From NCBI GenBank assembly GCA_937124585.1, contig CAKZKT010000104.1:1316-65315 (forward strand): 64,000 nt of DNA, in the 5' to 3' direction. The notes beneath the pieces were generated by a model. The model was not told where the DNA came from. It searched no databases and saw nothing but the letters and a program-made list of their open reading frames with translations. Position numbers and translations under genes: made by a program. This document shows, one piece after another, positions 4,694 through 61,936 of the stretch. Source of the stretch: an uncultured Anaerolineae bacterium. Its GTDB lineage: Bacteria > Chloroflexota > Anaerolineae > CG2-30-64-16. How positions within the stretch are numbered: position 1 is the stretch's first letter; the number at the start of each line of letters is the position of its first letter.

Positions 4694-5416
4694 ATGCCAA
4701 AGCGTGTACAGATGCCGAAATCGGTCGGCGCGACCGTCGCCCGGCCGCGGCCGGCGGCCCGCAAGCAGGCCGGCTCGCCGGTCGTTCTTTGGGCGGTGAT
4801 TGGGGCTGTGGTGTTGATCTTGGTCGCTGTGATTTTGTTGCAGATGCAAGCCATGAACCGGCCTGTCCAGACCAGCGGTGTGATCAGTGCGGGGATGGGA
4901 TGGGGGCCTGAGGACGCGCCGGTGAAAATCATCGAGTATTCCGACTTCGGCTGCACATATTGCCGGCTTTTTGCGTTGACCGCCGGCAAGTTGCTGCGCC
5001 AGGAGTACGAGGCGACCGGGAAAGTGCGCTTCGAGTACCGGAGCTTCATTATCGAGGGTGCAAGCACCCGTGAGGCGGCCAATGCAGCCTACTGTGCGGC
5101 CGATCAGGGGCGCTTCTGGGATTACGCCGAAGTGCTCTTCAATCGTTCTGGCACAGGTCCGGTTCAGACTGTGTTCAGCCGGGCTGCCCTCAAGGACTAC
5201 GGCACGCAGATCGGTCTCGATATGGGCAAGTTCGGCCGTTGCGTGGAAAGCGGCCAGTTCATCCCAGAGGTGCAGAACCAGCACGCCGAGGCCGCGCGGT
5301 TGGGCGTTCAGGCGACCCCGACCTTCTTTATCAACGGCAGCAAGGTCGAGGGCGCGGTGCCCTATGAGGAGTTCAAGGCGATGATAGAGGCCGTGCTGCG
5401 CTCGGCAGGCTCATAG
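4694..5416 (+). CDS. DsbA-family thiol:disulfide oxidoreductase with an N-terminal membrane anchor
   Basis: An N-terminal TM helix is followed by a thioredoxin fold with CTYC active site (SDFGCTYCR). Confidence 0.8.
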   Translation: MPKRVQMPKSVGATVARPRPAARKQAGSPVVLWAVIGAVVLILVAVILLQMQAMNRPVQTSGVISAGMGWGPEDAPVKIIEYSDFGCTYCRLFALTAGKLLRQEYEATGKVRFEYRSFIIEGASTREAANAAYCAADQGRFWDYAEVLFNRSGTGPVQTVFSRAALKDYGTQIGLDMGKFGRCVESGQFIPEVQNQHAEAARLGVQATPTFFINGSKVEGAVPYEEFKAMIEAVLRSAGS

Positions 5417-5453
5417 GCCGGCGCGGACATAGGATGACGCCTGGGTGGACATT

Positions 5454-5493
5454 GGCGGCGACATTTGTCGCCGCCAATATTTTGTGTGTTTTT
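5454..5493 (+). terminator. Rho-independent terminator of the dsbA-like gene
   Basis: Perfect hairpin GGCGGCGACATTTGTCGCCGCC followed by AATATTTTGTGTGTTTTT. Confidence 0.7.
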
Positions 5494-5494
5494 G

Positions 5495-5580
5495 ATGATT
5501 ACTTCGTGTAGTCAATACACTACAATAACAACCCCCAAAAAACAACAAAAACACCCAAAAAACTATGCGAAAAACAGCGC
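5495..5580 (+). repeat. A/C-rich low-GC intergenic element, copy A (promoter-like TTACTT-16-TACAAT followed by an ~55-nt C/A-rich tract and CTATGCGAA); homologous to the inverted copy at 24556-24640
   Basis: By-eye alignment to the reverse complement of 24556-24640 (TTCGTGTAG[T/C]CAATA[C/T]ACTACA, then CCCAAAAA/ACAACA repeats, then CTA[T/C]GCGAA). The region is markedly AT-rich in a GC-rich genome. Confidence 0.5.
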
Positions 5581-5598
5581 GAAGGACTGCGCTTCATC

Positions 5599-5633
5599 GG
5601 CCTGCCAGATGCCCTTTCGGACATCCGGCAGGC
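5599..5633. terminator. symmetric hairpin between copy A and the mtnP stop; likely the mtnP terminator (U-rich tract on the minus strand)
   Basis: GGCCTGCCAGATG-loop-CATCCGGCAGGC. On the minus strand it is followed by a GU-rich run containing TTTTT. Confidence 0.45.
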
Positions 5634-5661: not shown

Positions 5662-6543
5662 TTATTGGAAATATTTGCCGATCAACAAATCAAGTCGCGC
5701 CCGCAGGGCAGGGGGGATCACAGCGGAATTGGTGATGATCGCATCGCGCAGGGCATCGGCATATGGAGTAGGGGGCGCGTCGCGCAGGGCACGAACCGCG
5801 TTGACGACGGCGTTCCTGGCGACGTCCGCATTGGCGAGCAACTGTCGCACGACCATTTCCACCGTAACCGGTGATTCCGTCTCGTGCCACACATCGTAAT
5901 CGGTCACATGGGCCATGGTCGCATAGCTCATGCCGGCTTCCCGAGCCAGAAAGACCTCGGGAACGGCGGTCATGCCCACGATCGCAAAGCCCATCTGCTG
6001 AAAGAACCGGCTTTCGGCTTTGGTGCTGAAACGCGGCCCCTCGATCGTGACAAAAACGCCCCCGCGGTGCACCGTGTGGCCGGTCTGCTCCACGCTCTGC
6101 GCCACAAGTTCGCTCAAATACGCGCAGAATGGCTCGGCGACCGAGACGTGCACGACCAGGCCATCCGTGCCCACCGTCGGATCATCAAAGAAACTCAGTG
6201 GGCGCAGCCGTGTGCGGTCGAAAACCTGATCGGGCACTACGATGTCGCCGGGTTTGTAGGCCGGCTGCAGGCTGCCGCACGCGCTGATCGAGATCAGATA
6301 CTCGACACCGAGCATCTTGAAGCCGTAGATGTTCGCCCGGCTGTTGAGCTGCGTGGGGCTGATCCGGTGGCCGCGGCCGTGACGCGGCAAAAAAGCGACC
6401 GGCTGCCCGCCGATCCGCCCGACGATGTAGGCGTCAGACGGCGCACCGAACGGCGTCTCGAGCCGCACCTCCTGCACGTCGGTGAGCTGGCTCATATCGT
6501 AGATGCCGCTGCCTCCGATGACTCCGATGCGGATTTTATCCAT
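5662..6543 (-). CDS. mtnP: S-methyl-5'-thioadenosine phosphorylase
   Basis: 293 aa, MDKIRIGVIGGSG... PNP/MTAP family with the characteristic phosphate- and purine-binding segments (GVIGGSG, ...MTxxPE...). Confidence 0.85.
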   Translation of the reverse strand: MDKIRIGVIGGSGIYDMSQLTDVQEVRLETPFGAPSDAYIVGRIGGQPVAFLPRHGRGHRISPTQLNSRANIYGFKMLGVEYLISISACGSLQPAYKPGDIVVPDQVFDRTRLRPLSFFDDPTVGTDGLVVHVSVAEPFCAYLSELVAQSVEQTGHTVHRGGVFVTIEGPRFSTKAESRFFQQMGFAIVGMTAVPEVFLAREAGMSYATMAHVTDYDVWHETESPVTVEMVVRQLLANADVARNAVVNAVRALRDAPPTPYADALRDAIITNSAVIPPALRARLDLLIGKYFQ

Positions 6544-6581: not shown

Positions 6582-7505
6582 TTACCAGGCGACGCCAGGA
6601 CATGTGTTGACCCCGGCGTGAACGCCCAGCCTTTTGATCATGCGCACGCGATCCCATCGTTCGCCGAGAATGTCATCGTGAATGGCCCAGGAACGGCCTC
6701 GCACCGTGTCGGCGAGCTCGGGTTGACGGAAAGGAGAAGAGCCATCCAGCCGCGCGCGCAACGGCCCTCCGATCGCAAAGCCAGCGTGGATCTCCTCCAT
6801 GTACGCCTGCCCGAGCAGATAGCCGAAGCCGGCGCGCTCGAAAAGCACAGCCGTGTGGTAGTATAACGGCTGCACGATGTAGCTCGTGTGGCCCAGACAC
6901 AACATGAAAGTTTCCATGTGCTCGACGGCGCGATTGAAGTCGCCGAGGCCACGACGTATCTGACCCGGGGCCAGTCCGTGCGCCAAAGCGGCTGCCTCGG
7001 CGGCCAGATGACGACGGGCAGTGCCGCGCCATGTTGGCGTGCCGTCAGGCATGACATCGGTATCAAAACGGGGCGCGAACGGATCTTGCAGCGTCAGCCA
7101 CAGCGCCTCAAGCTGGTTATGTTGTGTGTCGCACAGCTCGATCTCCATGAACGCATCTCGCGCATCGCCTGCATGTCGCACTTCCAGGCGCATGCTGCGG
7201 GCTGCGGGATCGAAGATCGTCTGCATCACGCTGCGGCCCTGCGAGTCGGTCAGAGTGATCGGGGCTATGCCGAACCGGACGAGATAATTGACGGGCAACA
7301 ACACGCGAAAGAGAAGGCTCTGGCGCTGCGGATCCCAGTCCATCACCTCGCGCAGCGTGATGGGGCGGGTGCTTTCCCGGCCCCAGGCCGAGCCATCGCG
7401 CCGCTCAGCGACGCCGGCGTTCGACGACGCCAGCGTCGCATGATCGCCGGCGCAGACGGCGGCTTTGATGCTGAAACTCCCCGAAAGATCGGCGATCGTG
7501 CCCAT
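6582..7505 (-). CDS. hypothetical protein (no family recognised)
   Basis: 307-aa ORF in the correct frame and context, between the inositol-monophosphatase-family gene and mtnP on the same strand. Composition is not Arg/Pro-skewed. No motif recognised by eye. Confidence 0.4.
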   Translation of the reverse strand: MGTIADLSGSFSIKAAVCAGDHATLASSNAGVAERRDGSAWGRESTRPITLREVMDWDPQRQSLLFRVLLPVNYLVRFGIAPITLTDSQGRSVMQTIFDPAARSMRLEVRHAGDARDAFMEIELCDTQHNQLEALWLTLQDPFAPRFDTDVMPDGTPTWRGTARRHLAAEAAALAHGLAPGQIRRGLGDFNRAVEHMETFMLCLGHTSYIVQPLYYHTAVLFERAGFGYLLGQAYMEEIHAGFAIGGPLRARLDGSSPFRQPELADTVRGRSWAIHDDILGERWDRVRMIKRLGVHAGVNTCPGVAW

Positions 7506-8588: not shown

Positions 8589-9003
8589 TGGTGGAGATGC
8601 CGGGAGTCGAACCCGGGTCCGAAACAAACGACCGTATGCCTCTACAAGCTTAGTTGCTGATTCGCATTTCACCGGGCGGTCCGACAGCAACCACCGTCCT
8701 CTAGTCCGGCTAGCCGATGATCTTAGGCCCGCCTATCGGCATCCGCGGGCTGCACCTTACGGTTTATGACGATGCGTTGCGACGCCGCCGGGCCCCGTCG
8801 CAGGCACCGTGGTCACCCTGCGGCGACCAGTTTGTTCGCTGCCTCTCTGTTACGCAGCCAGCGCGAGCGCGTTGGCGCGAGCAGACGGGAAGACGAACGC
8901 ATTGGTGCTCTTGGCACTTGTCTTTTTGCTCTGGATTAACGAGGTAAGAGCGCCTCGGCTTGCAGCCTACGACCCATTTGCCCCGTCGAGACCAGTCATC
9001 CCC
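8589..9003 (-). ncRNA. ssrA: tmRNA (SsrA), about 415 nt
   Basis: The minus-strand 5' end is GGGGAUGACUGGUCUCGACGGGG (tRNA-like acceptor/5' domain). The 3' end is ...GGGUUCGACUCCCGGCAUCUCCACCA (T-arm plus CCA). An internal tag reading frame ends ...P-S-A-R-A-N-A-L-A-L-A-A-UAA. It lies directly downstream of smpB. Confidence 0.9.
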
Positions 9004-22783: not shown

Positions 22784-23418
22784 CCAAACGCTTCATCGCC
22801 ATCGCGGGCAACATCGGCGCGGGCAAATCGAGCCTGACCACGCTGCTCAGCCGGCGGCTGGGCTGGGAGCCTTTCTACGAGGCGGTTTCGGACAACCCCT
22901 ACCTGGCCGACTTCTATGCTGACATGTCCCGCTACGCGTTTCACTCGCAGATATTCTTCCTATCGCGGCGTCTGCGTCATCATCGCCGCCTGCTCGATTT
23001 CCCCGGATCGGTCATCCAGGACCGCAGTGTCTATGAGGACGCGGAGATCTTTGCCCGCGCGCTCTACAATCAGGGCCATATTGTACCACGAGATTATCAG
23101 ACGTACCGCGAGCTGTATGAGGTCCTGGTGTGTTTCCTCCCGCCGCCGGATCTGGTGGTCTACCTGCGCGCCTCGGTACCCACCCTGCTGCAACGCATCG
23201 CCTTGCGCGGCCGCAGCTTCGAGCAGAACATCGCTCCCGGCTATTTGACCGAATTGAACGCGCTGTACGAGGCCTGGATGCAAAGTTTTTCACTGTGCCC
23301 GGTCTTGACGGTTCCGGCCGACCGGCTGGATTTCGTTCACGAGACGGCCCATTTGGACCTGATCGTGTCCAAGATCGAGGAAAAGCTCAGCGGGAAAGAA
23401 GAGGTAATTTTTTCTTGA
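22780..23418 (+). CDS. deoxynucleoside kinase (second tandem paralog)
   Basis: IAIAGNIGAGKSSL P-loop, ...DRS.YED..IFAR.L... Its start overlaps the stop of the preceding dNK. Confidence 0.85.
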   Translation: MTKRFIAIAGNIGAGKSSLTTLLSRRLGWEPFYEAVSDNPYLADFYADMSRYAFHSQIFFLSRRLRHHRRLLDFPGSVIQDRSVYEDAEIFARALYNQGHIVPRDYQTYRELYEVLVCFLPPPDLVVYLRASVPTLLQRIALRGRSFEQNIAPGYLTELNALYEAWMQSFSLCPVLTVPADRLDFVHETAHLDLIVSKIEEKLSGKEEVIFS

Positions 23419-24554
23419 TGTGCAGTTTGCGGATGTCGGGCTTCAGTGCTATGATTGCTGGCGAGGGAGAGGGGGCCAGCAAGACGATGACAACACCGTG
23501 GTCAGTCGGTGAGGAGGTGCCGGTCGCGCCGGCAGAAAGCGCTGAACCGACCAGTGCCATGCTGGGCGATGTGCTGCATGTGGTTTGGAGCCACAACCGG
23601 ATGCTCCATCATGCCTGGCGCGACGCAGAGGGATGGAGCCAGCCGACACCGGTTGCTTATGGTGAGCAGCCGGCACTGGCTGCGGCAGGCGAGCGCCTGC
23701 ATTGTCTTTTCTCGGCGCAATTCATGCGCAATTACGAAATCTATCATGTGGCCTGGGACGGCGTCCGCTGGAGCCTGCCGGTCAACGTTTCGTCCACCTA
23801 CGGCGTCTCACGGCATCCGGTTCTGGCAGCCGGCAGCGATGGCGTGTTGCATGCGGCTTGGGCCGACACGACGCCCGGCTATTCCACGATCTACTACGGC
23901 ACGCGCGGGGCAACATTTTGGGCCAATCGGCCCGTGCCGAGCGGTCGGGGCATCATGCCCGCCATTGCTGTGGCGCCCGACGGCGCGGTTTACATCGCCT
24001 GGTCCGATCGGCGCAGCGATACCGGCGCTTACGATGTCTATTGTGCCCTCTACCGCGACAACATCTGGTATCCACCCGAATCGGTTTCGGACAGCGCCAC
24101 CGCCGACTCACTTTATCCCCAGCTGGCAATAGATGCGCGCGGGGTCTGTCATATCATCTGGAGCGAAGACAACGGCGAGACTTGCCGCATCTATCACGCA
24201 GACCGCAGGCCACAGGGATGGGCGAAGCCGACAGATGTCTCGCAGGCAGACGCTGATCTCGGCCTGGCGCGGCTGGCGATCAACCCGTTTGGCTTCGTGC
24301 ATGTCTTCTGGTCGGACGGCGCCACCATCCATCATCGCATCAAACCGCAGGCGTTCGATGCGGCCTGGCGCAGCTCCGAGCTTGTCACCCCGAATTTTGC
24401 CGAGCCCTCTGCCCTCTCCCCTGCCCTGAGCGCGTCACGTCGAGCGCATGTCGTCTGGTGCGGCCGCGACGCAGCCGGCAGCTGCCGCCTGTTTCACGTC
24501 GAGCGCACACCATTTCCCAGCCCCAGCGTCTTTTTGCCGATTGTTTTTAGGTAA
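23418..24554 (+). CDS. cytoplasmic 7-bladed beta-propeller protein (BNR/Asp-box- or PD40-like repeats), unknown function
   Basis: Seven repeats spaced ~45-50 aa of the form G.hHhhW.D...G...hY (HVVWSHN, HVAWDG, HAAWADT, YIAWSDRRSDTG, HIIWSEDNGET, HVFWSDGAT, HVVWCGRD). No signal peptide. The start ATG overlaps the dNK stop (TGATG). The upstream extension of the raw ORF from 23130 overlaps dNK2 and is rejected. Confidence 0.6.
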   Translation: MCSLRMSGFSAMIAGEGEGASKTMTTPWSVGEEVPVAPAESAEPTSAMLGDVLHVVWSHNRMLHHAWRDAEGWSQPTPVAYGEQPALAAAGERLHCLFSAQFMRNYEIYHVAWDGVRWSLPVNVSSTYGVSRHPVLAAGSDGVLHAAWADTTPGYSTIYYGTRGATFWANRPVPSGRGIMPAIAVAPDGAVYIAWSDRRSDTGAYDVYCALYRDNIWYPPESVSDSATADSLYPQLAIDARGVCHIIWSEDNGETCRIYHADRRPQGWAKPTDVSQADADLGLARLAINPFGFVHVFWSDGATIHHRIKPQAFDAAWRSSELVTPNFAEPSALSPALSASRRAHVVWCGRDAAGSCRLFHVERTPFPSPSVFLPIVFR

Positions 24555-24555
24555 G

Positions 24556-24640
24556 CCGTTTTTTTGATTCGCGTAGTGTGGTGTTGTTTTTGGGATGTTG
24601 TTTGTGGAGTTTTTGGGTGTAGTATATTGGCTACACGAAA
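24556..24640 (-). repeat. A/C-rich low-GC intergenic element, copy B (minus strand: TTGCAA-16-TATACT promoter-like, then a C/A-rich tract and CTACGCGAA); inverted homolog of 5495-5580
   Basis: Homologous to copy A (see there). It lies between the stop of the propeller gene and a bidirectional terminator. Confidence 0.5.
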
Positions 24641-24670
24641 TATTGCAATGTAAATCGCCAAAATAAACGA

Positions 24671-24703
24671 CGCATAAAAAGGCTCGAGGCGCCCGTTGGG
24701 GGC
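24671..24703. terminator. bidirectional Rho-independent terminator
   Basis: Perfect 13-bp-arm hairpin GGCTCGAGGCGCC-CGTTGGG-GGCGCCTCGAGCC. It is flanked by an A-run (plus side) and TTTTTATGCGTCGTTTATTTT on the minus strand, serving the DUF362 gene and possibly the plus-strand operon. Confidence 0.75.
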
Positions 24704-24759
24704 GCCTCGAGCCTTAAAACACACGAAACGGACACGCGGCGTCGCGTGTCATCCCGACA

Positions 24760-35119: not shown

Positions 35120-37678
35120 ATGACCCAACAACCATCCTACCTCAACCCATCCCTCCCTCTCGACGCGCGCGCCGACGATCTCGTCAGCCGCCTGACGCTG
35201 GAGGAGAAGATCGGTCAGATGCTCTATGACGCGCCCGCCATCGAGCGGCTGGGCATCCCGGAGTACAACTGGTGGAACGAATGCCTGCACGGCGTGGGCC
35301 GCGCAGGCATTGCCACCGTCTTCCCGCAGGCCATCGGCCTGGCCGCCACCTGGAACGATGATCTGGTGCGCCGCGTGGGCACTGCCATCTCCGACGAAGC
35401 GCGCGCCAAATACAACGATTGGCAGCATCGCGGCATCCGCCAGATCTACACCGGCCTGACTTTCTGGACGCCCAACATCAACATCTTTCGTGATCCGCGC
35501 TGGGGCCGCGGACAGGAGACCTACGGCGAGGACCCCTACCTGACGGCGCGCATGGGCGTGGCGCTCGTGCGTGGGCTGCAAGGAGATGACCCGCGTTATC
35601 TGAAAGTCGCCGCCTGCGCCAAGCACTACGCCGTCCACAGTGGCCCGGAGCCCGACCGCCACGGCTTCAACGCGGTCGTGGACGCGCGCGACCTGCGCGA
35701 GACCTACCTGCCCGCGTTCGAGGCGCTGGTGCGCGAAGCCAGGGTCGAAGCCGTGATGGGCGCATACAACCGCACCAATGGCGAGGCGTGTTGCGCCAGC
35801 CCCACCCTGCTGGAAAAGATCCTGCGGCAGGAGTGGGGCTTCGACGGCCACGTCGTCTCCGACTGCGGTGCGGTTGACGACATCTGGCGCCATCACGGCC
35901 TGGCGGCCAATCGCGAGGAAGCGGCCGCGCTGGCCGTCAAAGCCGGCTGCGAGCTCAACTGCGGCGAGACTTACGCCTCGCTGCTGATCGCCCATCACAA
36001 GGGGCTCATTGACGAGGCAACCCTCAATCGGGCCGTGTGGCGGCTCTTCCGCACGCGGCTCCGCCTGGGCATGTTCGACTCGCCGGAACGCGTCCCCTAC
36101 TCGGCCATCCCCTACGAGGTCGTGAACTGCCCGGCCCATCGCGAGTTGGCGCTCCAGGCCGCGCGGGAATCCATCGTGCTGCTCAAAAACGATGGCCTGC
36201 TGCCCCTGTCGAAGGAAATCGGCAGCATCGCCGTCATCGGCCCCAACGCCGACGACCTGATGGTGCTGCTGGGCAACTACAACGGCACCCCCGCCCAAGC
36301 AGTCACGCCGCTGGAGGGCATCCGCCGGGCGGTCTCCTCCAAGACGGCGGTCTATACGGCCAAAGGCTGTCCGATCGCCGACCGTGTGCCCAACCTGAGC
36401 ATCGTGCCGTCGGCCTGTCTGCGGCCGGCCAACGCCGACGGCCTCCAGCACGGCCTGACCGGCGAGTATTACCCGACCGCTCGCATCGAGGGCAGCCCTG
36501 CGTTCACCCGGCTCGATCCGACCGTGGACTTCATCTGGAAAAACACCACGCCGCTGGCCGGCGAGCGCGGCGACCACTTCGCCGTGCGCTGGTCGGGCTT
36601 CCTCGTGCCACCCACGAGCGGAACCTATCGCCTGGGCGTGAACGGCCACAGCGGCTACAAGCTCTATCTCGACGGCGCGCTGCTGGTGGAATATCATGGG
36701 ATGCACCACGCCCTGCGCCGGACGCAGGAAGTCGAACTGGAGGCCGGCCGGCTGTATCGCATCCAGCTCGATTATGTCAATGATGGCATTGATCCCTGGG
36801 CGCAGCTCGTATGGGCCGTGCCGGGCGTGGACGAGGCCGCCGCAGCGCTGGAGGTTGCGGCGAAGGCCGATGTCGTGGTCATGTGCCTGGGCCTGACACC
36901 GTATGTCGAGGGCGAGGAGATGCCGGTACAGGTGGAGGGCTTCCTCGGCGGCGACCGTACCGACATCGCCCTGCCGGCCGCACAGCAACGGCTGCTGGAA
37001 CGCGTCCACGGCCTGGGCAAGCCGATCGTGCTCGTGTTGCTCGGCGGCAGCGCCATCGCCGTGCCCTGGGCCGACGAACATGTGCCGGCGATCCTGCAGG
37101 CGTGGTATCCGGGCGAGGCGGGCGGCACGGCCCTGGCCGAAGTGCTGTTCGGCGACTACAACCCAGCCGGCCGGCTGCCGGTCACGGTCTATCGCTCGGT
37201 CGCCGACCTGCCGCCATTCACCGATTACGCCATGGCGAATCGTACCTATCGTTACTTCCGAGGCAAACCGCTCTACCCGTTCGGCCACGGGCTGAGCTAC
37301 ACGACCTTCGCATACGGCAATCTGCAACTAAGCAAGGCCACGATCTCCGCCGACGAACCGCTCACCGTCCAGGCCGATGTGACCAACACCGGCCAACGCG
37401 CCGGCGACGAGGTCGTCCAGCTCTATCTGAGCTATCCTGCCACCTCCCCGCGCAACCCGATCCGCCAGCTGCGCGGCTTCCGGCGCATCAGCCTGGCACC
37501 GGGCGAGACGAAGACGGTGCGCTTCACCCTGACGCCGCAGGATTTGGCGCTGGTGAACGACGCCGGCCAGCGGGTGGTGGAACCGGGTGAGTATCGCGTG
37601 AACATCGGCGGCCGCCAGCCATCCGGGGCTGACTCCCCAACCGATCTCGCGACAGGCACATTCCGCGTGAATTCTTAA
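35120..37678 (+). CDS. glycoside hydrolase family 3 beta-glucosidase (BglX-like) with an inserted PA14 domain
   Basis: LTLEEKIGQM..., GH3 N- and C-terminal domains, and a PA14 insertion (GLTGEYY....FTRLDPTVDF.W......GERGDHFAVRWSGFL.P..SGTY.L). Confidence 0.85.
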   Translation: MTQQPSYLNPSLPLDARADDLVSRLTLEEKIGQMLYDAPAIERLGIPEYNWWNECLHGVGRAGIATVFPQAIGLAATWNDDLVRRVGTAISDEARAKYNDWQHRGIRQIYTGLTFWTPNINIFRDPRWGRGQETYGEDPYLTARMGVALVRGLQGDDPRYLKVAACAKHYAVHSGPEPDRHGFNAVVDARDLRETYLPAFEALVREARVEAVMGAYNRTNGEACCASPTLLEKILRQEWGFDGHVVSDCGAVDDIWRHHGLAANREEAAALAVKAGCELNCGETYASLLIAHHKGLIDEATLNRAVWRLFRTRLRLGMFDSPERVPYSAIPYEVVNCPAHRELALQAARESIVLLKNDGLLPLSKEIGSIAVIGPNADDLMVLLGNYNGTPAQAVTPLEGIRRAVSSKTAVYTAKGCPIADRVPNLSIVPSACLRPANADGLQHGLTGEYYPTARIEGSPAFTRLDPTVDFIWKNTTPLAGERGDHFAVRWSGFLVPPTSGTYRLGVNGHSGYKLYLDGALLVEYHGMHHALRRTQEVELEAGRLYRIQLDYVNDGIDPWAQLVWAVPGVDEAAAALEVAAKADVVVMCLGLTPYVEGEEMPVQVEGFLGGDRTDIALPAAQQRLLERVHGLGKPIVLVLLGGSAIAVPWADEHVPAILQAWYPGEAGGTALAEVLFGDYNPAGRLPVTVYRSVADLPPFTDYAMANRTYRYFRGKPLYPFGHGLSYTTFAYGNLQLSKATISADEPLTVQADVTNTGQRAGDEVVQLYLSYPATSPRNPIRQLRGFRRISLAPGETKTVRFTLTPQDLALVNDAGQRVVEPGEYRVNIGGRQPSGADSPTDLATGTFRVNS

Positions 37679-51462: not shown

Positions 51463-51479
51463 TCACGCGCTGAAAAACA

Positions 51480-51728
51480 CCTTCGGGGCAGAGTGCGTTC
51501 TGACCAGAACAATTCTCGACCGGCGGTATGGCCCACGCAGGATCGGGCCGAGCCCGCGAGCAGCGCTAAGAGCAGCGCCGCAGACCCGGTGTCAGGCCGG
51601 GGCCGACGGTACAGTCCGGATGGGAGAAGGTGGCGCAGATAGACCGCTTTGGGCCTTCACAGGCTCAGACGCGGGCATGTGCACGCGATAGCCCCAGGGT
51701 GTGTGGTCTGCCCTGGGGCTTTTTTATT
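51480..51728 (+). promoter_or_regulatory. FMN riboswitch (RFN element) with an intrinsic terminator expression platform
   Basis: Aptamer motifs CTTCGGGGCAGAGTG..., CGACCGGCGGTA, GCCCGCGAGC and GCCGACGGTACAGTCCGGATGGGAGAAGG match the RFN consensus (cf. B. subtilis ribD leader ...GGGGCAGGGTG...CGACCGGCGGTA...GCCGACAGTGAAAGTCTGGATGGGAGAAGG). They are followed by a terminator hairpin AGCCCCAGGGTG-TGTGGTCTG-CCCTGGGGCT plus TTTTTTATT (51689-51728). Confidence 0.85.
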
Positions 51729-60710: not shown

Positions 60711-61190
60711 TTATTCTTCGATCTCGTCCTCGTCTGGATCATCCGCGTCGTCCGCATCGGCTTCATCCGCAGGATGGCCGACATTCGGCAGCCGCGGCGA
60801 CCACCTTTCCACTGCATGGCGCTGCACGATCAGCGGTTCCTCTGCGCCGACGTCGAGCGCCAGTGCGCCCAGATCCCACCACATCACGGTGCCCGTGACG
60901 ACCTGACCGTTCCACAGGTGGAGCGTAAGCGGCTCCTGGCGGAGGGACATGGCCATCAGCGTTCGGCTGAGGGCCTTGCGCGGCCAGTCGAACCGCCAGC
61001 GCAGCTCTGCGAACGGCACGCCATAGAAATCGGCCAACATGCGAATGACGTCATCGTCCCCCATGGCCCGATAGCGCTGCTCCAGCTGGCGGTAAAGGCC
61101 CTTCGGCAGCTCGGTCGCTGCTTCGATCTCCCAGGGCGTGATGCCCTGTCGTTTGGCGCGCAGCAAGCGCAGGTAATCACCCAGGCTCAT
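60711..61190 (-). CDS. XRE-type helix-turn-helix domain protein with a C-terminal Hfq/Sm-like domain and an acidic tail
   Basis: N-terminal LGDYLRLLRAKRQGITPWEIEAATELPKGLYRQLEQ...MLADFYGVPFAEL (HTH_XRE-like). C-terminal LTLHLWNGQVVTGTVMWWDLGALALD...IVQRHAVE matches the Hfq Sm1/Sm2 pattern (hL.NG..l.G.i..fD.f.lll....lv.KHAI). A DEADADDADDPDEDEIEE tail follows. Translationally coupled to the upstream paralog. Confidence 0.55.
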   Translation of the reverse strand: MSLGDYLRLLRAKRQGITPWEIEAATELPKGLYRQLEQRYRAMGDDDVIRMLADFYGVPFAELRWRFDWPRKALSRTLMAMSLRQEPLTLHLWNGQVVTGTVMWWDLGALALDVGAEEPLIVQRHAVERWSPRLPNVGHPADEADADDADDPDEDEIEE

Positions 61191-61936
61191 GGCGTCGGCT
61201 CCTGGCGGCGTGGCCGGCGAGTGTAGCAGACGATCGCCAGCTTGTTCACCGTGACCTCGGCGCCATCGGGCGTCTCCACGGTGATGCTGTACGGACTGAA
61301 ACCGACGACGACACCGTCCACGGTTGAGCCGTCGAACAGCGTGAAATGGAGCAGATCGCGATGCTCCTGGGCGGCCGTCAGATAGCGGGCCTCGAACTCA
61401 TCCACGGCCTCCGGCAGGTAGGCGCGGTGGCGGGCCGGCATGGGCGTCGCCTGTACCCGGGCCTGCAGATCTTTGAGCAGCGTGCTGAAGGCACTGCGGT
61501 CCAGCGAGGAGAGCGGTTTGCCGAGTTCGGCTTCAAGCTCGGCTGTGGTCTTCTTGATGCGCTTGAGCAGGTTGTCGAGGTGCGCCAGCTGGCTCGGCCG
61601 CGGTGGCACGGGCGGCCGGGGGACCGGTTTGGGCCGCGCCGACTTTTCGCGCGGCCGCGGCGCCGGCGGCTTGGGAATCGTCACGGGCGCCGGCGGCGTC
61701 TCGCGGACGGGCTGGCGTTCGAGCGGTGCAGCGCCCGGCCGCGGATCTGACTGCAATTTAATGGTGCTCTCTTCTACGTAAAGGGCGCGGGCAAGCCGGC
61801 TGAGATGGCGAGGGTCAATGCTACGCTGGCCCGACTCGTATTCCATAATCAGGCCGATCGGCAGGCCGGCGCGATTCGCCAGCGCCGCAACGCTGATCCG
61901 CTTCTGCTCGCGCAACGCCCATAAATTTTCTGCCAC
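61187..61936 (-). CDS. XRE-type helix-turn-helix domain protein with a Pro-rich linker and a C-terminal Hfq/Sm-like domain (paralog of the downstream gene)
   Basis: GTG start with a CCAGGAGG RBS. N-terminal ISVAALANRAGLPIGLIMEYESGQRSIDPRHLSRLARALYV (HTH_XRE). A ~60-aa Pro-rich linker. C-terminal LLHFTLFDGSTVDGVVVGFSPYSITVE...VNKLAIVCY (Sm-like). Confidence 0.55.
   Translation of the reverse strand: MAENLWALREQKRISVAALANRAGLPIGLIMEYESGQRSIDPRHLSRLARALYVEESTIKLQSDPRPGAAPLERQPVRETPPAPVTIPKPPAPRPREKSARPKPVPRPPVPPRPSQLAHLDNLLKRIKKTTAELEAELGKPLSSLDRSAFSTLLKDLQARVQATPMPARHRAYLPEAVDEFEARYLTAAQEHRDLLHFTLFDGSTVDGVVVGFSPYSITVETPDGAEVTVNKLAIVCYTRRPRRQEPTP

What the first reader, a model, noticed from the sequence alone, without database searches (positions are those of the whole stretch)
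5495..5633. Low-GC A/C-rich intergenic element with a near-consensus promoter; homologous inverted partner 19 kb away (copy A)
Between the dsbA-like terminator and the convergent mtnP there is a strongly AT-rich stretch, in contrast to the GC-rich surroundings. It contains a good sigma-70 promoter (TTACTT-16-TACAAT) and a ~55-nt G-free tract (AACAACCCCCAAAAAACAACAAAAACACCCAAAAAAC). That tract is made largely of AAC/AAA (ARN-like) triplets. A CTATGCGAA box and then a stable hairpin follow. A recognisably homologous element, in the opposite orientation, lies at 24556-24640. It has TTCGTGTAG[T/C]CAATA[C/T]ACTACA, then CCCAAAAA and ACAACA repeats, then CTA[T/C]GCGAA. In both copies the element sits in a convergent-gene gap next to a bidirectional terminator. 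A transcript from it would be a short C/A-rich RNA partly antisense to the 3' end of the neighbouring gene. Candidates are a small-RNA gene family, a conserved 3'-UTR element read from the opposite strand (GU-rich), or a repeated regulatory cassette. The ARN-rich composition is noteworthy given the Hfq-like proteins encoded elsewhere in this window.
Basis: seen in the sequence. Interest (0 to 1): 0.6.

Follow-up and report, generated by a model that had tools for sequence, protein, structure and literature searches.

The report
Conserved G-free small-RNA gene family
Two copies of a short intergenic unit (a nearly invariant 22-base box, about 40 bases of almost only A and C, then a 9-base motif) are real, are kept at the same gene gaps in about a dozen related Anaerolineae genomes, and are most likely genes of an undescribed small-RNA family, though no transcript has been seen.

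Summary
The box TTCGTGTAG[Y]CAATA[Y]ACTACA occurs exactly twice in the window, at 5503-5524 (+) and 24618-24639 (-), with 0 expected by chance. Each box is followed by a 38-41 nt A/C tract and then CTAYGCGAA. These tracts lie in the two longest G-free runs of the window (55 and 58 nt).

The unit is not low-complexity noise and not a high-copy repeat. Copy A is kept between the dsbA-like gene and mtnP in eight other genomes, down to 58% DsbA identity. Copy B is kept in two others. Further boxes lie upstream of genes.

No Rfam family matches. The box holds a -10-like hexamer (A15 in 16/17, T19 in 17/17) of the type used by this organism's FMN-riboswitch promoter. It also holds a palindrome, TGTAG-N8-CTACA. 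There is no conserved -35.

The first 9 nt of the box are complementary to the downstream motif, through G-U pairs on the C/A strand only. The spacing is 59-66 nt.

Best reading (about 0.55): an sRNA gene family whose box is its promoter/operator and whose working part is the G-depleted single-stranded tract. The main rival is that the box itself is transcribed and switches between two pairings. The transcription start and the RNA's partner are unresolved.

The parts
5451..5494 (+). Intrinsic terminator of the upstream dsbA-like gene: hairpin 5451-5478 plus a T-rich tail. The element starts 24 nt after the hairpin.
   Evidence: Terminator scan. Gene identity from Pfam PF13462/PF01323.
5503..5524 (+). 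Copy A box, TTCGTGTAGTCAATACACTACA. It holds arm a (5503-5511), the palindrome TGTAGT-CAATAC-ACTACA (5507-5524) and the -10-like hexamer TACACT (5516-5521).
   Evidence: Exact or near-exact in orthologous gaps. Pair counts. PWM TTGATG-18-TACACT scores 9.1 bits.
5525..5562 (+). Copy A tract of A and C only (A25 C12 T1). It lies inside the 55-nt G-free run 5512-5566. This is the proposed single-stranded working part of the RNA.
   Evidence: Composition is conserved but sequence is not in 12 family members (A 47%, C 35%, U 14%, G 4.5%).
5563..5571 (+). Copy A motif c, CTATGCGAA. It is complementary to arm a (UUCGUGUAG) with two G-U pairs.
   Evidence: RNAfold pairs a with c in the minimum-energy structure.
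5576..5633 (+). Two hairpins (5576-5593 and 5600-5633) between motif c and the stop of convergent mtnP (5662). They are the likely 3' end of RNA A and are shared with mtnP as a two-way terminator region.
   Evidence: Fold z = -5.0. The - strand terminator call at 5593..5576 is.
24681..24713 (-). Terminator hairpin of the upstream DUF362 gene, followed on the - strand by TTTTTATGCGTCGTTTATTTT.
   Evidence: DUF362 assignment.
24618..24648 (-). Copy B box, TTCGTGTAGCCAATATACTACA (24639-24618), with the promoter-like TTGCAA-16-TATACT (24648-24621).
   Evidence: 12.5 bits. Orthologous boxes in L025 and L004.
24577..24617 (-). Copy B A/C tract (A22 C17 T2). It lies inside the 58-nt G-free run 24573-24630.
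24568..24576 (-). Copy B motif c, CTACGCGAA. It pairs with arm a at 9 of 9 positions, one of them G-U. It lies about 14 nt from the stop of the convergent ORF, with no hairpin in between.

Best explanation
The two elements are paralogous genes of a lineage-specific (Anaerolineae/Chloroflexota) family of small non-coding RNAs transcribed on the C/A-rich strand.

The 22-nt box is the promoter core. It holds a -10 hexamer, [T/A]A-N-[A/G]-[C/T]-T, at box positions 14-19. This hexamer sits inside a nearly invariant recognition sequence (TTCGYRTAG-YCA, palindrome TGTAG-N8-CTACA). That sequence is inferred to be the operator of an unidentified regulator, which would make these RNAs, and a few protein genes that carry the same box, one regulon.

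Transcription is inferred to start about 4-8 nt after the box, near 5527-5530 for A and near 24611-24614 on the - strand for B. The RNA would then open with about 40 nt that cannot fold because it has almost no G, followed by the conserved CUAYGCGAA and hairpins.

The G-depleted A/C platform is the proposed effector. It would either pair with G-rich sequences of mRNAs, as the C-rich regions of RoxS/RsaE do, or bind a protein that recognises A/C-rich single strands.

Shown: the anatomy, the conservation, the strand asymmetry and the -10-like invariants. Inferred: transcription, the start site, the regulator and the target.
For: 1. The family is real and under selection.
- The exact box was found in only 4 of 185,579 species genomes, all Chloroflexota/Anaerolineae, and in 1 JGI metagenome contig.
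- Copy A is retained in the dsbA-like/mtnP gap in L001, L009, L011, L013, L014, L015, L017 and L019, at DsbA identity 77-58%. The box is nearly unchanged there while the spacer has diverged beyond alignment.
- Copy B is retained in L025 and L004 next to the same convergent gene.

2. There is strand-specific selection on an RNA-like property. The spacers are 4.5% G against 35% C. The two longest G-free runs of the window are the two copies.

3. The box looks like a promoter.
- A15 is kept in 16 of 17 boxes and T19 in 17 of 17. These are the two critical -10 positions.
- The same hexamer type (TATACT) serves the FMN-riboswitch promoter of this window, TTGACA-17-TATACT. The tmRNA promoter is TTGCGC-17-TATAGT.
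- In a PWM scan, the most recurrent -10 position is box position 13/14. Copy B passes the consensus scan.

4. The geometry fits. Upstream terminators end 17-37 nt before the box. That leaves room for a -35 region belonging to a box-internal -10, but not for a whole promoter upstream of the box.

5. The box occurs without the A/C tract and motif c at places where promoters are expected. In L017 it lies 38 nt before the M28 peptidase start codon. In L002/L005 and L003 it lies in divergent-gene gaps upstream of an S41 peptidase gene and a solute-binding-protein gene.

6. L004 shows a complete small-gene layout: box, 41-nt spacer, motif c, then a 12-bp hairpin followed by CUUUUU.

7. The element is not coding. 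The ATG inside motif c is present in only 7 of 13 copies and no ORF is conserved.
Against: - There are no expression data of any kind.
- No conserved -35 was found, so a box-internal promoter would need an activator or be weak.
- The 9-nt complementarity between arm a and motif c (94% of cells paired, spacing 59-66 nt) is not explained if arm a is not transcribed.
- Many copies also have an xAxxxT hexamer directly upstream of the box. L003 has an excellent TTGAAA-17-TAAAAT there (15.3 bits).
- Window copy B has no terminator and no significant fold (z = -0.4).
- Complementarity to a Shine-Dalgarno-like sequence is no better than in shuffled spacers in 10 of 12 members.
- The sample is small and phylogenetically related, so the covariation statistics are weak.
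Confidence: 0.55

Rival explanations
1. The box is itself transcribed. On this reading it is the 5' module of the RNA, or of an mRNA leader or intercistronic region. Its arm a (UUCGUGUAG) alternates between a local hairpin with b (CUACA) and a long-range helix with c (CUAYRCGAA). The long-range helix closes the A/C tract into a loop of about 50 nt. In L017 it would sequester the M28 peptidase start codon. This would be a switch or 'panhandle' RNA read by a protein that recognises the invariant hairpin.
For: - The a:c helix is 94% paired at a conserved register. Sliding the partner by 1-3 columns drops pairing to 23-62%. RNAalifold selects this helix as the consensus structure.
- The tandem U-G/G-U pairs exist only on the C/A strand. 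In some lineages they become C-G/A-U (L013/14, L019) or U-A/G-C (L004, L017a).
- The a:b hairpin has two pairs with changes on both sides, G-C to A-U and U-A to C-G.
- Spacing varies from 59 to 66 nt, which suits an RNA loop better than phased DNA sites.
- In L017 motif c coincides with the ATG CGA A of a protein gene, exactly 60 nt from arm a.
- The box is conserved in an all-or-none way: nhmmer scores fall from 16 bits or more to 7.5 bits or less. That pattern is more typical of an RNA or a dedicated signal than of a transcription-factor operator.
Against: - No pair of the a:c helix shows a change on both sides, and the shuffle control is not exceeded.
- L025 (C-C) and L009 (C-A) have internal mismatches.
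- Only 17-18 nt separate the upstream terminator from the box in L015 and L017, too little for an upstream promoter.
- L002 and L003 have the box but no motif c.
- The wobble evidence for the local hairpin points to both strands about equally.
Confidence: 0.22
2. The unit is a DNA-level regulatory cassette with no functional RNA. A protein would bind TTCGYRTAG in inverted orientation at arm a and at motif c, about six helical turns apart. It would also bind the a/b palindrome, looping or insulating the DNA between convergent genes.
For: - Arm a and the reverse complement of c are the same 9-11-mer, TTCGYRTAGYC, in several members.
- There is a palindrome, TGTAG-N8-CTACA, whose half-sites change together.
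- In copy A the A-tracts start 10 bp apart (5537, 5547, 5557; read directly), which could bend DNA.
Against: - The strong C-over-G asymmetry of the spacer on one strand has no rationale for a double-stranded DNA site.
- The a-to-c spacing spans most of a helical turn (59-66).
- The centre of the palindrome (C11, A12, A15) is invariant and asymmetric.
- The A-tract phasing is not seen in copy B or in L001.
Confidence: 0.1
3. The unit is a back-up Rho-dependent terminator. The G-poor, C-rich, unstructured tract would be a Rho loading (rut) site that stops read-through from the upstream gene before it runs into the convergent gene.
For: - C:G is about 8:1 over an unstructured stretch of roughly 40-55 nt.
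- The A and B types always follow the terminator of a co-directional gene and face a convergent gene.
- That rut sites are C-rich, G-poor and unstructured is established knowledge, taken from memory.
Against: - It does not explain the nearly invariant box or motif c.
- It does not explain boxes in divergent-gene gaps (L002, L003) or inside an operon (L017).
- The upstream intrinsic terminators look strong.
Confidence: 0.06
4. The functional strand is the G/U-rich one. On this reading the unit is a conserved 3'-UTR element of the convergent gene (mtnP, or the uncharacterised ORF at copy B).
For: - Three orthologous groups all abut the 3' end of a convergent gene.
- On that strand the tract forms a long U-rich tail after the hairpin at 5593..5576, which the scan calls a terminator.
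Against: - On that strand the a:c pairs become A-C/C-A mismatches in most members.
- L017b would be antisense to the der-M28 operon.
- L002 and L003 lie in divergent gaps.
- The convergent genes differ between the groups.
Confidence: 0.04
5. The unit is a mobile or selfish repeat (MITE or REP-like), or a chance low-complexity similarity.
For: - The unit has 9-bp inverted ends, is about 70 bp long, and contains GTAG.
- In L017 a copy appears between der and the M28 gene, where relatives have no spacer.
Against: - Copy number is low: 2 in 64 kb, none in 63 kb of L022-L024, and one exact box per hit genome.
- There is long-term syntenic retention in a fixed orientation.
- No target-site duplication is visible in the flanks.
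- The conserved parts are not the low-complexity parts.
Confidence: 0.03

Closest known systems
RoxS/RsaE of Firmicutes (C-rich trans-acting sRNA with a conserved repressor operator at its promoter)
   Same: - It is a short intergenic RNA gene.
- Its working parts are C-rich single-stranded regions that pair with G-rich sequences of targets.
- A transcription-factor site (Rex) at the promoter is conserved across genera (PMC5419742).
   Different: - There is no sequence or structure match to any Rfam family.
- Here there is one long linear A/C tract with almost no G, rather than four short C-rich regions.
- There is no measurable enrichment of anti-Shine-Dalgarno pairing.
- The phylum is different.
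- The box-to-motif complementarity has no counterpart.
CrcZ/CrcY of Pseudomonas (A-rich 'CA-motif' RNAs that titrate Hfq/Crc); comparison from memory
   Same: - There are runs of AAnAAnAA/ARN triplets in an unstructured RNA. Copy A has AAA-AAC-AAC-AAA-AAC.
- The conserved property is composition rather than sequence, which suggests a protein-binding platform.
   Different: - These RNAs are about 5 times shorter, with one tract instead of six motifs.
- No Rfam match was found.
- No canonical Hfq is encoded in the window.
- The promoter type differs.
Regulon-defined paralogous sRNA families (for example the CiaR-dependent csRNAs of streptococci and the Qrr RNAs of vibrios); comparison from memory
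   Same: - There are several paralogous small genes per genome.
- They are recognisable by a shared, highly conserved promoter-proximal sequence, an unpaired effector region and a terminator.
   Different: - The regulator is unknown here.
- The transcribed effector region is not conserved in sequence even between orthologues.
Rho utilisation (rut) sites; comparison from memory
   Same: The RNA is C-rich, G-poor and unstructured, and lies downstream of a gene.
   Different: rut sites have no conserved flanking sequence motifs and are not paralogous families.
REP/BIME and MITE repeats; comparison from memory
   Same: It is a short extragenic unit with inverted ends, found in convergent-gene gaps near terminators.
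   Different: It is low-copy, AT-rich, syntenically conserved over family-level divergence and fixed in orientation.

Membership tests
Any curated RNA family (Rfam 15, 4227 models) | A covariance-model score at or above the family's gathering threshold. | tested here: not met
   The whole window gives only tmRNA and the FMN riboswitch. Permissive scans of both copies give only sub-threshold chance hits, the best being 28 bits against a threshold of 70. Related loci give nothing at the element.
Sigma-70-type promoter | A -10 hexamer with A at position 2 and T at position 6. | tested here: met
   In frame 14-19 of the box, A15 is present in 16/17 copies and T19 in 17/17. TATACT is also the -10 of the FMN-riboswitch promoter in this window.
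Sigma-70-type promoter | A -35 hexamer (TTGACA-like) 16-18 bp upstream. | tested here: inconclusive
   It is present in copy B (TTGCAA-16), weak in copy A (TTGATG-18), and absent or poor in most orthologues.
Sigma-70-type promoter | A mapped transcription start. | not testable with these tools
   No expression data are available.
Independent trans-acting sRNA gene | Intergenic and non-coding, with its own promoter and terminator. | tested here: inconclusive
   It is intergenic and has no conserved ORF. A clean terminator is seen only in L004. Copy A has hairpins without a U-run, and window copy B has nothing.
Independent trans-acting sRNA gene | Conservation in related genomes. | tested here: met
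   There are two syntenic orthologous groups: 9 genomes for type A and 3 for type B.
C-rich anti-Shine-Dalgarno sRNAs (RoxS/RsaE-like mechanism) | Effector region complementary to the ribosome-binding site beyond what composition alone gives. | tested here: not met
   Duplex energy with AAGGAGGUGAUC is no better than for shuffled spacers in 10 of 12 members. Only L019 and L004 stand out.
Structured RNA with a conserved helix (a:c) | Base pairs supported by compensatory changes on both sides. | tested here: inconclusive
   94% of cells are paired, but 0 pairs show a change on both sides and the shuffle control is not exceeded. The local a:b hairpin has 2 such pairs.
REP/MITE repeat | High copy number, dispersed, variable presence. 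| tested here: not met
   There are 2 copies in 64 kb, none in 63 kb of L022-L024, and one exact box per genome among the genome hits, with stable synteny.
Hfq-dependent sRNA | An Hfq protein encoded by the organism, and (ARN)n or U-rich binding sites in the RNA. | tested here: inconclusive
   ARN runs are present in copies A and B. No canonical Hfq is encoded in the window. There is only an HTH-Hfq_1 fusion at 26.7 bits against a cut-off of 27. The rest of the genome was not seen.

The most novel reading that the evidence does not exclude
The box is an RNA module, not a promoter. This would be a Chloroflexota-specific riboregulator class. A nearly invariant 5' hairpin (a:b) would compete with a long-range helix (a:c). 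The competition would expose or enclose a G-free A/C platform in the small RNAs, or a start codon in mRNAs as at the L017 M28 peptidase gene. The switch might be read by the HTH-plus-Hfq-like fusion proteins encoded at 60.7-61.9 kb, which could bind both the palindromic DNA and the ARN-rich RNA.
Probability: 0.15. Interest if true: 0.75.

Novelty: new member of a known kind. Interest (0 to 1): 0.5.

Why it matters
I found no paper describing regulatory RNAs in Anaerolineae; that rests on one literature search plus the Rfam scans. The class is abundant in sludge, sediments and hot-spring mats, and according to the record titles every genome segment used here comes from a MAG or a metagenome assembly.

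A conserved, easily recognised 22-nt signature that marks two syntenic small genes and several protein genes gives a concrete entry point to a regulon. It also gives a post-transcriptional regulator in this phylum that can be tested by mapping existing metatranscriptomes.

The nearly complete exclusion of G from about 40 nt, kept while the sequence itself drifts freely, is an unusual form of constraint. It points to recognition of a composition or of single-strandedness rather than of a seed sequence.

Tried and rejected
- **Rfam.** Scans at gathering and permissive thresholds on both copies and on related loci found no family.
- **Small protein starting at the ATG of motif c.** Rejected. The ATG is replaced by ACG, ACA, ATA or ATC in 6 of 13 copies, L011 reads ATG TGA, and there is no Shine-Dalgarno sequence.
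- **Anti-Shine-Dalgarno enrichment.** Negative beyond what composition gives.
- **Canonical Hfq in the window.** None was found. There is only a borderline HTH-Hfq_1 fusion.
- **IMG/VR scan with a relaxed box.** It gave 2 hits in AT-rich phage contigs. One overlaps the start of an ORF, the other was not examined for ORFs, and neither has an A/C-rich, G-free tract after the box. About 2-3 hits were expected by chance (my estimate), so they were treated as chance.
- **Copy B synteny through the DUF362 gene.** The element is absent in L022-L024, where PHP and PrsW genes fill the gap. It is present in L025 and L004.
- **More distant type-A orthologue, L018 (51% DsbA identity).** The element is absent there and only a hairpin remains.
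- **Weak box-like hits.** Hits inside hflX (12925) and at 6857-6904 are coding-region noise.
- **A 36-bp inverted repeat in L005 containing TTCGTGTAGT.** Its count is compatible with chance.
- **Promoter on the opposite strand.** A TTGACT/TTGGCT is present inside the reversed box, but no consistent -10 follows it.
- **Invertible-promoter idea.** Rejected. Orientation is identical in all assemblies.
- **Phage-type RNA polymerase promoter.** The resemblance (ACACTATA in L013) is from memory only. The G-free start region argues against it, and it was not pursued.
- **Literature search for the literal motif.** It returned only primers.
Full report
**1. What is in the sequence**

Copy A lies between a dsbA-like gene and a convergent gene.
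- The dsbA-like gene is at 4694-5416 (+) and carries Pfam Thioredoxin_4/DSBA. Its intrinsic terminator is the hairpin 5451-5478 plus a T-run.
- The convergent gene is mtnP (5662-6543, -; PNP_UDP_1).
- In between lie the box TTCGTGTAGTCAATACACTACA (5503-5524), a 38-nt tract of A25 C12 T1 (5525-5562), CTATGCGAA (5563-5571), and two hairpins (5576-5593, 5600-5633).

Copy B is the same layout on the minus strand.
- The terminator hairpin of a DUF362 gene is at 24681-24713.
- The box TTCGTGTAGCCAATATACTACA is at 24639-24618, followed by a 41-nt tract of A22 C17 T2.
- CTACGCGAA is at 24576-24568. About 14 nt further on is the stop of a convergent ORF with no Pfam match.

The box pattern matches only these two places in the window even with 3 mismatches, and never in shuffles. 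The G-free runs that contain the tracts (55 and 58 nt) are the longest on their strands in the 64 kb. The next longest, 39 nt, encodes a protein N-terminus. The observation therefore stands.

TTACTT is a 2/6 match to TTGACA, and the consensus scan finds no promoter there.

**2. It is conserved, and it is a small family**

A scan of one genome per species (185,579 species) for the exact box, with the two variable positions left free, gave four hits against roughly one expected by chance (my estimate). All four are in Chloroflexota/Anaerolineae MAGs. The JGI metagenome scan gave one more, from the same species as one of the four. The window itself comes from GCA_034432295.1.

I fetched orthologous loci through the dsbA-like protein. 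The element sits in the same dsbA-like/mtnP gap, in the same orientation, in L001, L009, L011, L013, L014, L015, L017 and L019. DsbA identity there is 77-58%. It is absent in L018, at 51%.
- Across this range the box changes at a handful of positions and motif c hardly at all.
- The spacer between them is unalignable. It keeps its length (37-44 nt) and its composition (A 47%, C 35%, U 14%, G 4.5%).

Copy B is likewise retained next to the same uncharacterised convergent gene in L025 and L004. It is missing where two other genes occupy the gap (L022-L024).

Further boxes occur in other settings.
- A third syntenic group has a diverged right half and lies 14-26 nt from the stop of a convergent gene (L015 5511, L017 5981).
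- One lies between der and an M28 peptidase gene in L017.
- Others lie in divergent-gene gaps upstream of an S41 peptidase gene (L002/L005) and of a solute-binding-protein gene (L003).

Scores are either 16 bits or more, or 7.5 bits or less. Copy number is low. This is neither a REP/MITE-type repeat nor a low-complexity coincidence.

**3. Anatomy of the conserved parts**

Within the box, T1, C3, G4, T7, A8, G9, A12 and T19 are invariant, and C11 and A15 are kept in 16/17. Three overlapping features can be read.

(i) A -10-like hexamer lies in frame 14-19: TACACT, TATACT, TAAACT, TATGCT, AACATT and so on. Its two critical positions, A15 and T19, are kept. This organism uses ordinary promoters with exactly such hexamers. 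The FMN riboswitch is preceded by TTGACA-17-TATACT and the tmRNA gene by TTGCGC-17-TATAGT.

(ii) A palindrome, TGTAG-N8-CTACA (arms a and b), is 87.5% pairable. Two of its positions change on both sides: G-C to A-U in L009/L013/L014, and U-A to C-G in L019.

(iii) The first nine bases, TTCGTGTAG, are the complement of motif c, CTAYRCGAA, which lies 59-66 nt downstream.
- Pairing is 94%, against 23-62% when the register is slid.
- In most members the two central pairs are U-G and G-U. In others they are C-G/A-U or U-A/G-C.
- These wobble pairs exist only on the C/A strand.
- No pair shows a change on both sides, and the shuffle control is not exceeded. The helix is therefore suggestive rather than proven.

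Single-sequence folding chooses a:c in some members and a:b in others.

**4. Which strand, and is it RNA?**

The near-absence of G against abundant C on one strand, kept while the sequence drifts, is hard to explain for double-stranded DNA. It is what selection for an unstructured transcript would give. This, together with the strand-specific wobble pairs, makes the C/A strand the functional one.

It argues against the 3'-UTR reading on the G/U strand. On that reading the L017 der-M28 copy would also be antisense to an operon.

No conserved ORF starts at the ATG of motif c, which is present in only 7 of 13 copies.

**5. Where does transcription start?**

This is the main unresolved point.

For a start just downstream of the box, with the box acting as promoter/operator:
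- The -10 invariants are kept.
- Box position 13/14 is the most recurrent predicted -10 position.
- The consensus scan calls a promoter for copy B.
- The box occurs alone at places where promoters are expected.
- Upstream terminators end only 17-37 nt before the box. That is enough for a -35 region serving a box-internal -10, but not for a complete upstream promoter.

Against this reading:
- No -35 is conserved.
- The invariant TTCGYRTAGYCA would lie in the promoter spacer.
- The a:c complementarity is left without a role.
- Several copies have a -10-like hexamer immediately upstream of the box. L003 has an excellent full promoter there.

I put about 0.55 on the promoter/operator reading and about 0.22 on the transcribed-box (alternative pairing) reading. 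Both imply an RNA that displays the A/C platform.

**6. What the RNA would do**

The closest mechanistic analogues are C-rich sRNAs such as RoxS. Its C-rich regions pair with G-rich target sequences, and its promoter carries a conserved Rex operator (PMC5419742).

However, the spacers are no more complementary to a Shine-Dalgarno-like sequence than shuffled versions in 10 of 12 members, and their sequence is not conserved even between orthologues. A composition-reading partner fits better. Candidates are a protein that binds A/C-rich single strands through ARN triplets, as on the distal face of Hfq, or Rho.

The window encodes no canonical Hfq. One ORF (60711-61190, -) combines an HTH domain with a borderline Hfq-related domain (26.7 bits against a 27-bit cut-off; weak matches to solved Hfq structures). 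Its neighbour is weakly similar to it. A link to the element is pure speculation.

An antisense role against the convergent gene is possible only for window copy B. Type-A copies and L004 have hairpins or a terminator before the convergent coding region.

**7. Comparison with known families, and novelty**

Nothing in Rfam matches. A literature search returned no description of regulatory RNAs in this class or of this motif.

It works most like a regulon-defined family of small RNAs, so I file it as a new member of a known kind, not as a member of any named family.

The unusual aspects are:
- the all-or-none conservation of a 22-nt box over family-level divergence;
- the compositional rather than sequence constraint on the effector tract;
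- the complementarity between box and motif c.

**8. Verdict**

The finding is real and conserved, and is probably a new sRNA gene family of Anaerolineae. Its promoter assignment, antisense role and Hfq link are not. Interest is moderate (0.5). A single strand-specific 5'-end data set would settle the open questions.

Noticed in passing
window 60711-61190 (-) and 61187-61936 (-): Two adjacent genes have an N-terminal XRE-type HTH domain. In the first, the C-terminal part matches Pfam Hfq_1 at 26.7 bits against a cut-off of 27, and weakly matches solved Hfq structures (6gwk, 3hfo). The second has a weakly similar C-terminus. They look like HTH-Sm/Hfq-like fusion proteins of unknown role.
   Followed up: partly
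window 8589-9003 (-) and 51475-51635 (+): A one-piece tmRNA gene lies next to smpB, and there is an FMN riboswitch. Both are preceded by textbook promoters: TTGCGC-17-TATAGT and TTGACA-17-TATACT. These were useful as in-genome promoter references.
   Followed up: yes
L017 19886-19975 (-): In GCA_964551735.1 a box lies directly after the der stop codon. Motif c, CTATGCGAA, supplies the ATG CGA A (Met-Arg-Lys) start of the M28 peptidase gene. Relatives have no spacer there. The 11 nt ATGCGAAAAAC are identical to window copy A at 5565-5575.
   Followed up: partly
window 24425-24500 (+): The 13-mer TCACGTCGAGCGC occurs twice, about 60 nt apart, near the 3' end of the uncharacterised ORF 23130-24554. 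That ORF has no Pfam match. Orthologues of 357-364 aa suggest the real start is later than the listed GTG.
   Followed up: no
L005 10640-10745: A perfect 36-bp inverted repeat lies at the 3' end of the S41 peptidase gene, whose 5' side carries a box. The repeat contains TTCGTGTAGT and its complement. The count is compatible with chance, but the co-location is odd.
   Followed up: partly
window 35123-35161 (+): This is the third-longest G-free run in the window. It encodes the N-terminus of the 852-aa ORF at 35120-37678 (MTQQPSYLNPSLPL...) and is unrelated to the element.
   Followed up: yes
L015 14273-20714; L002 5459-5567: A WYL/Cas3 and type I-E-like cas gene cluster lies downstream of the conserved block in L015. 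L002 has a glycine riboswitch. Neither is related to the element.
   Followed up: no
window 5537-5562 (+): The three A-tracts of copy A start exactly 10 bp apart (5537, 5547, 5557), the phasing that bends DNA. This is not reproduced in copy B or in L001.
   Followed up: partly
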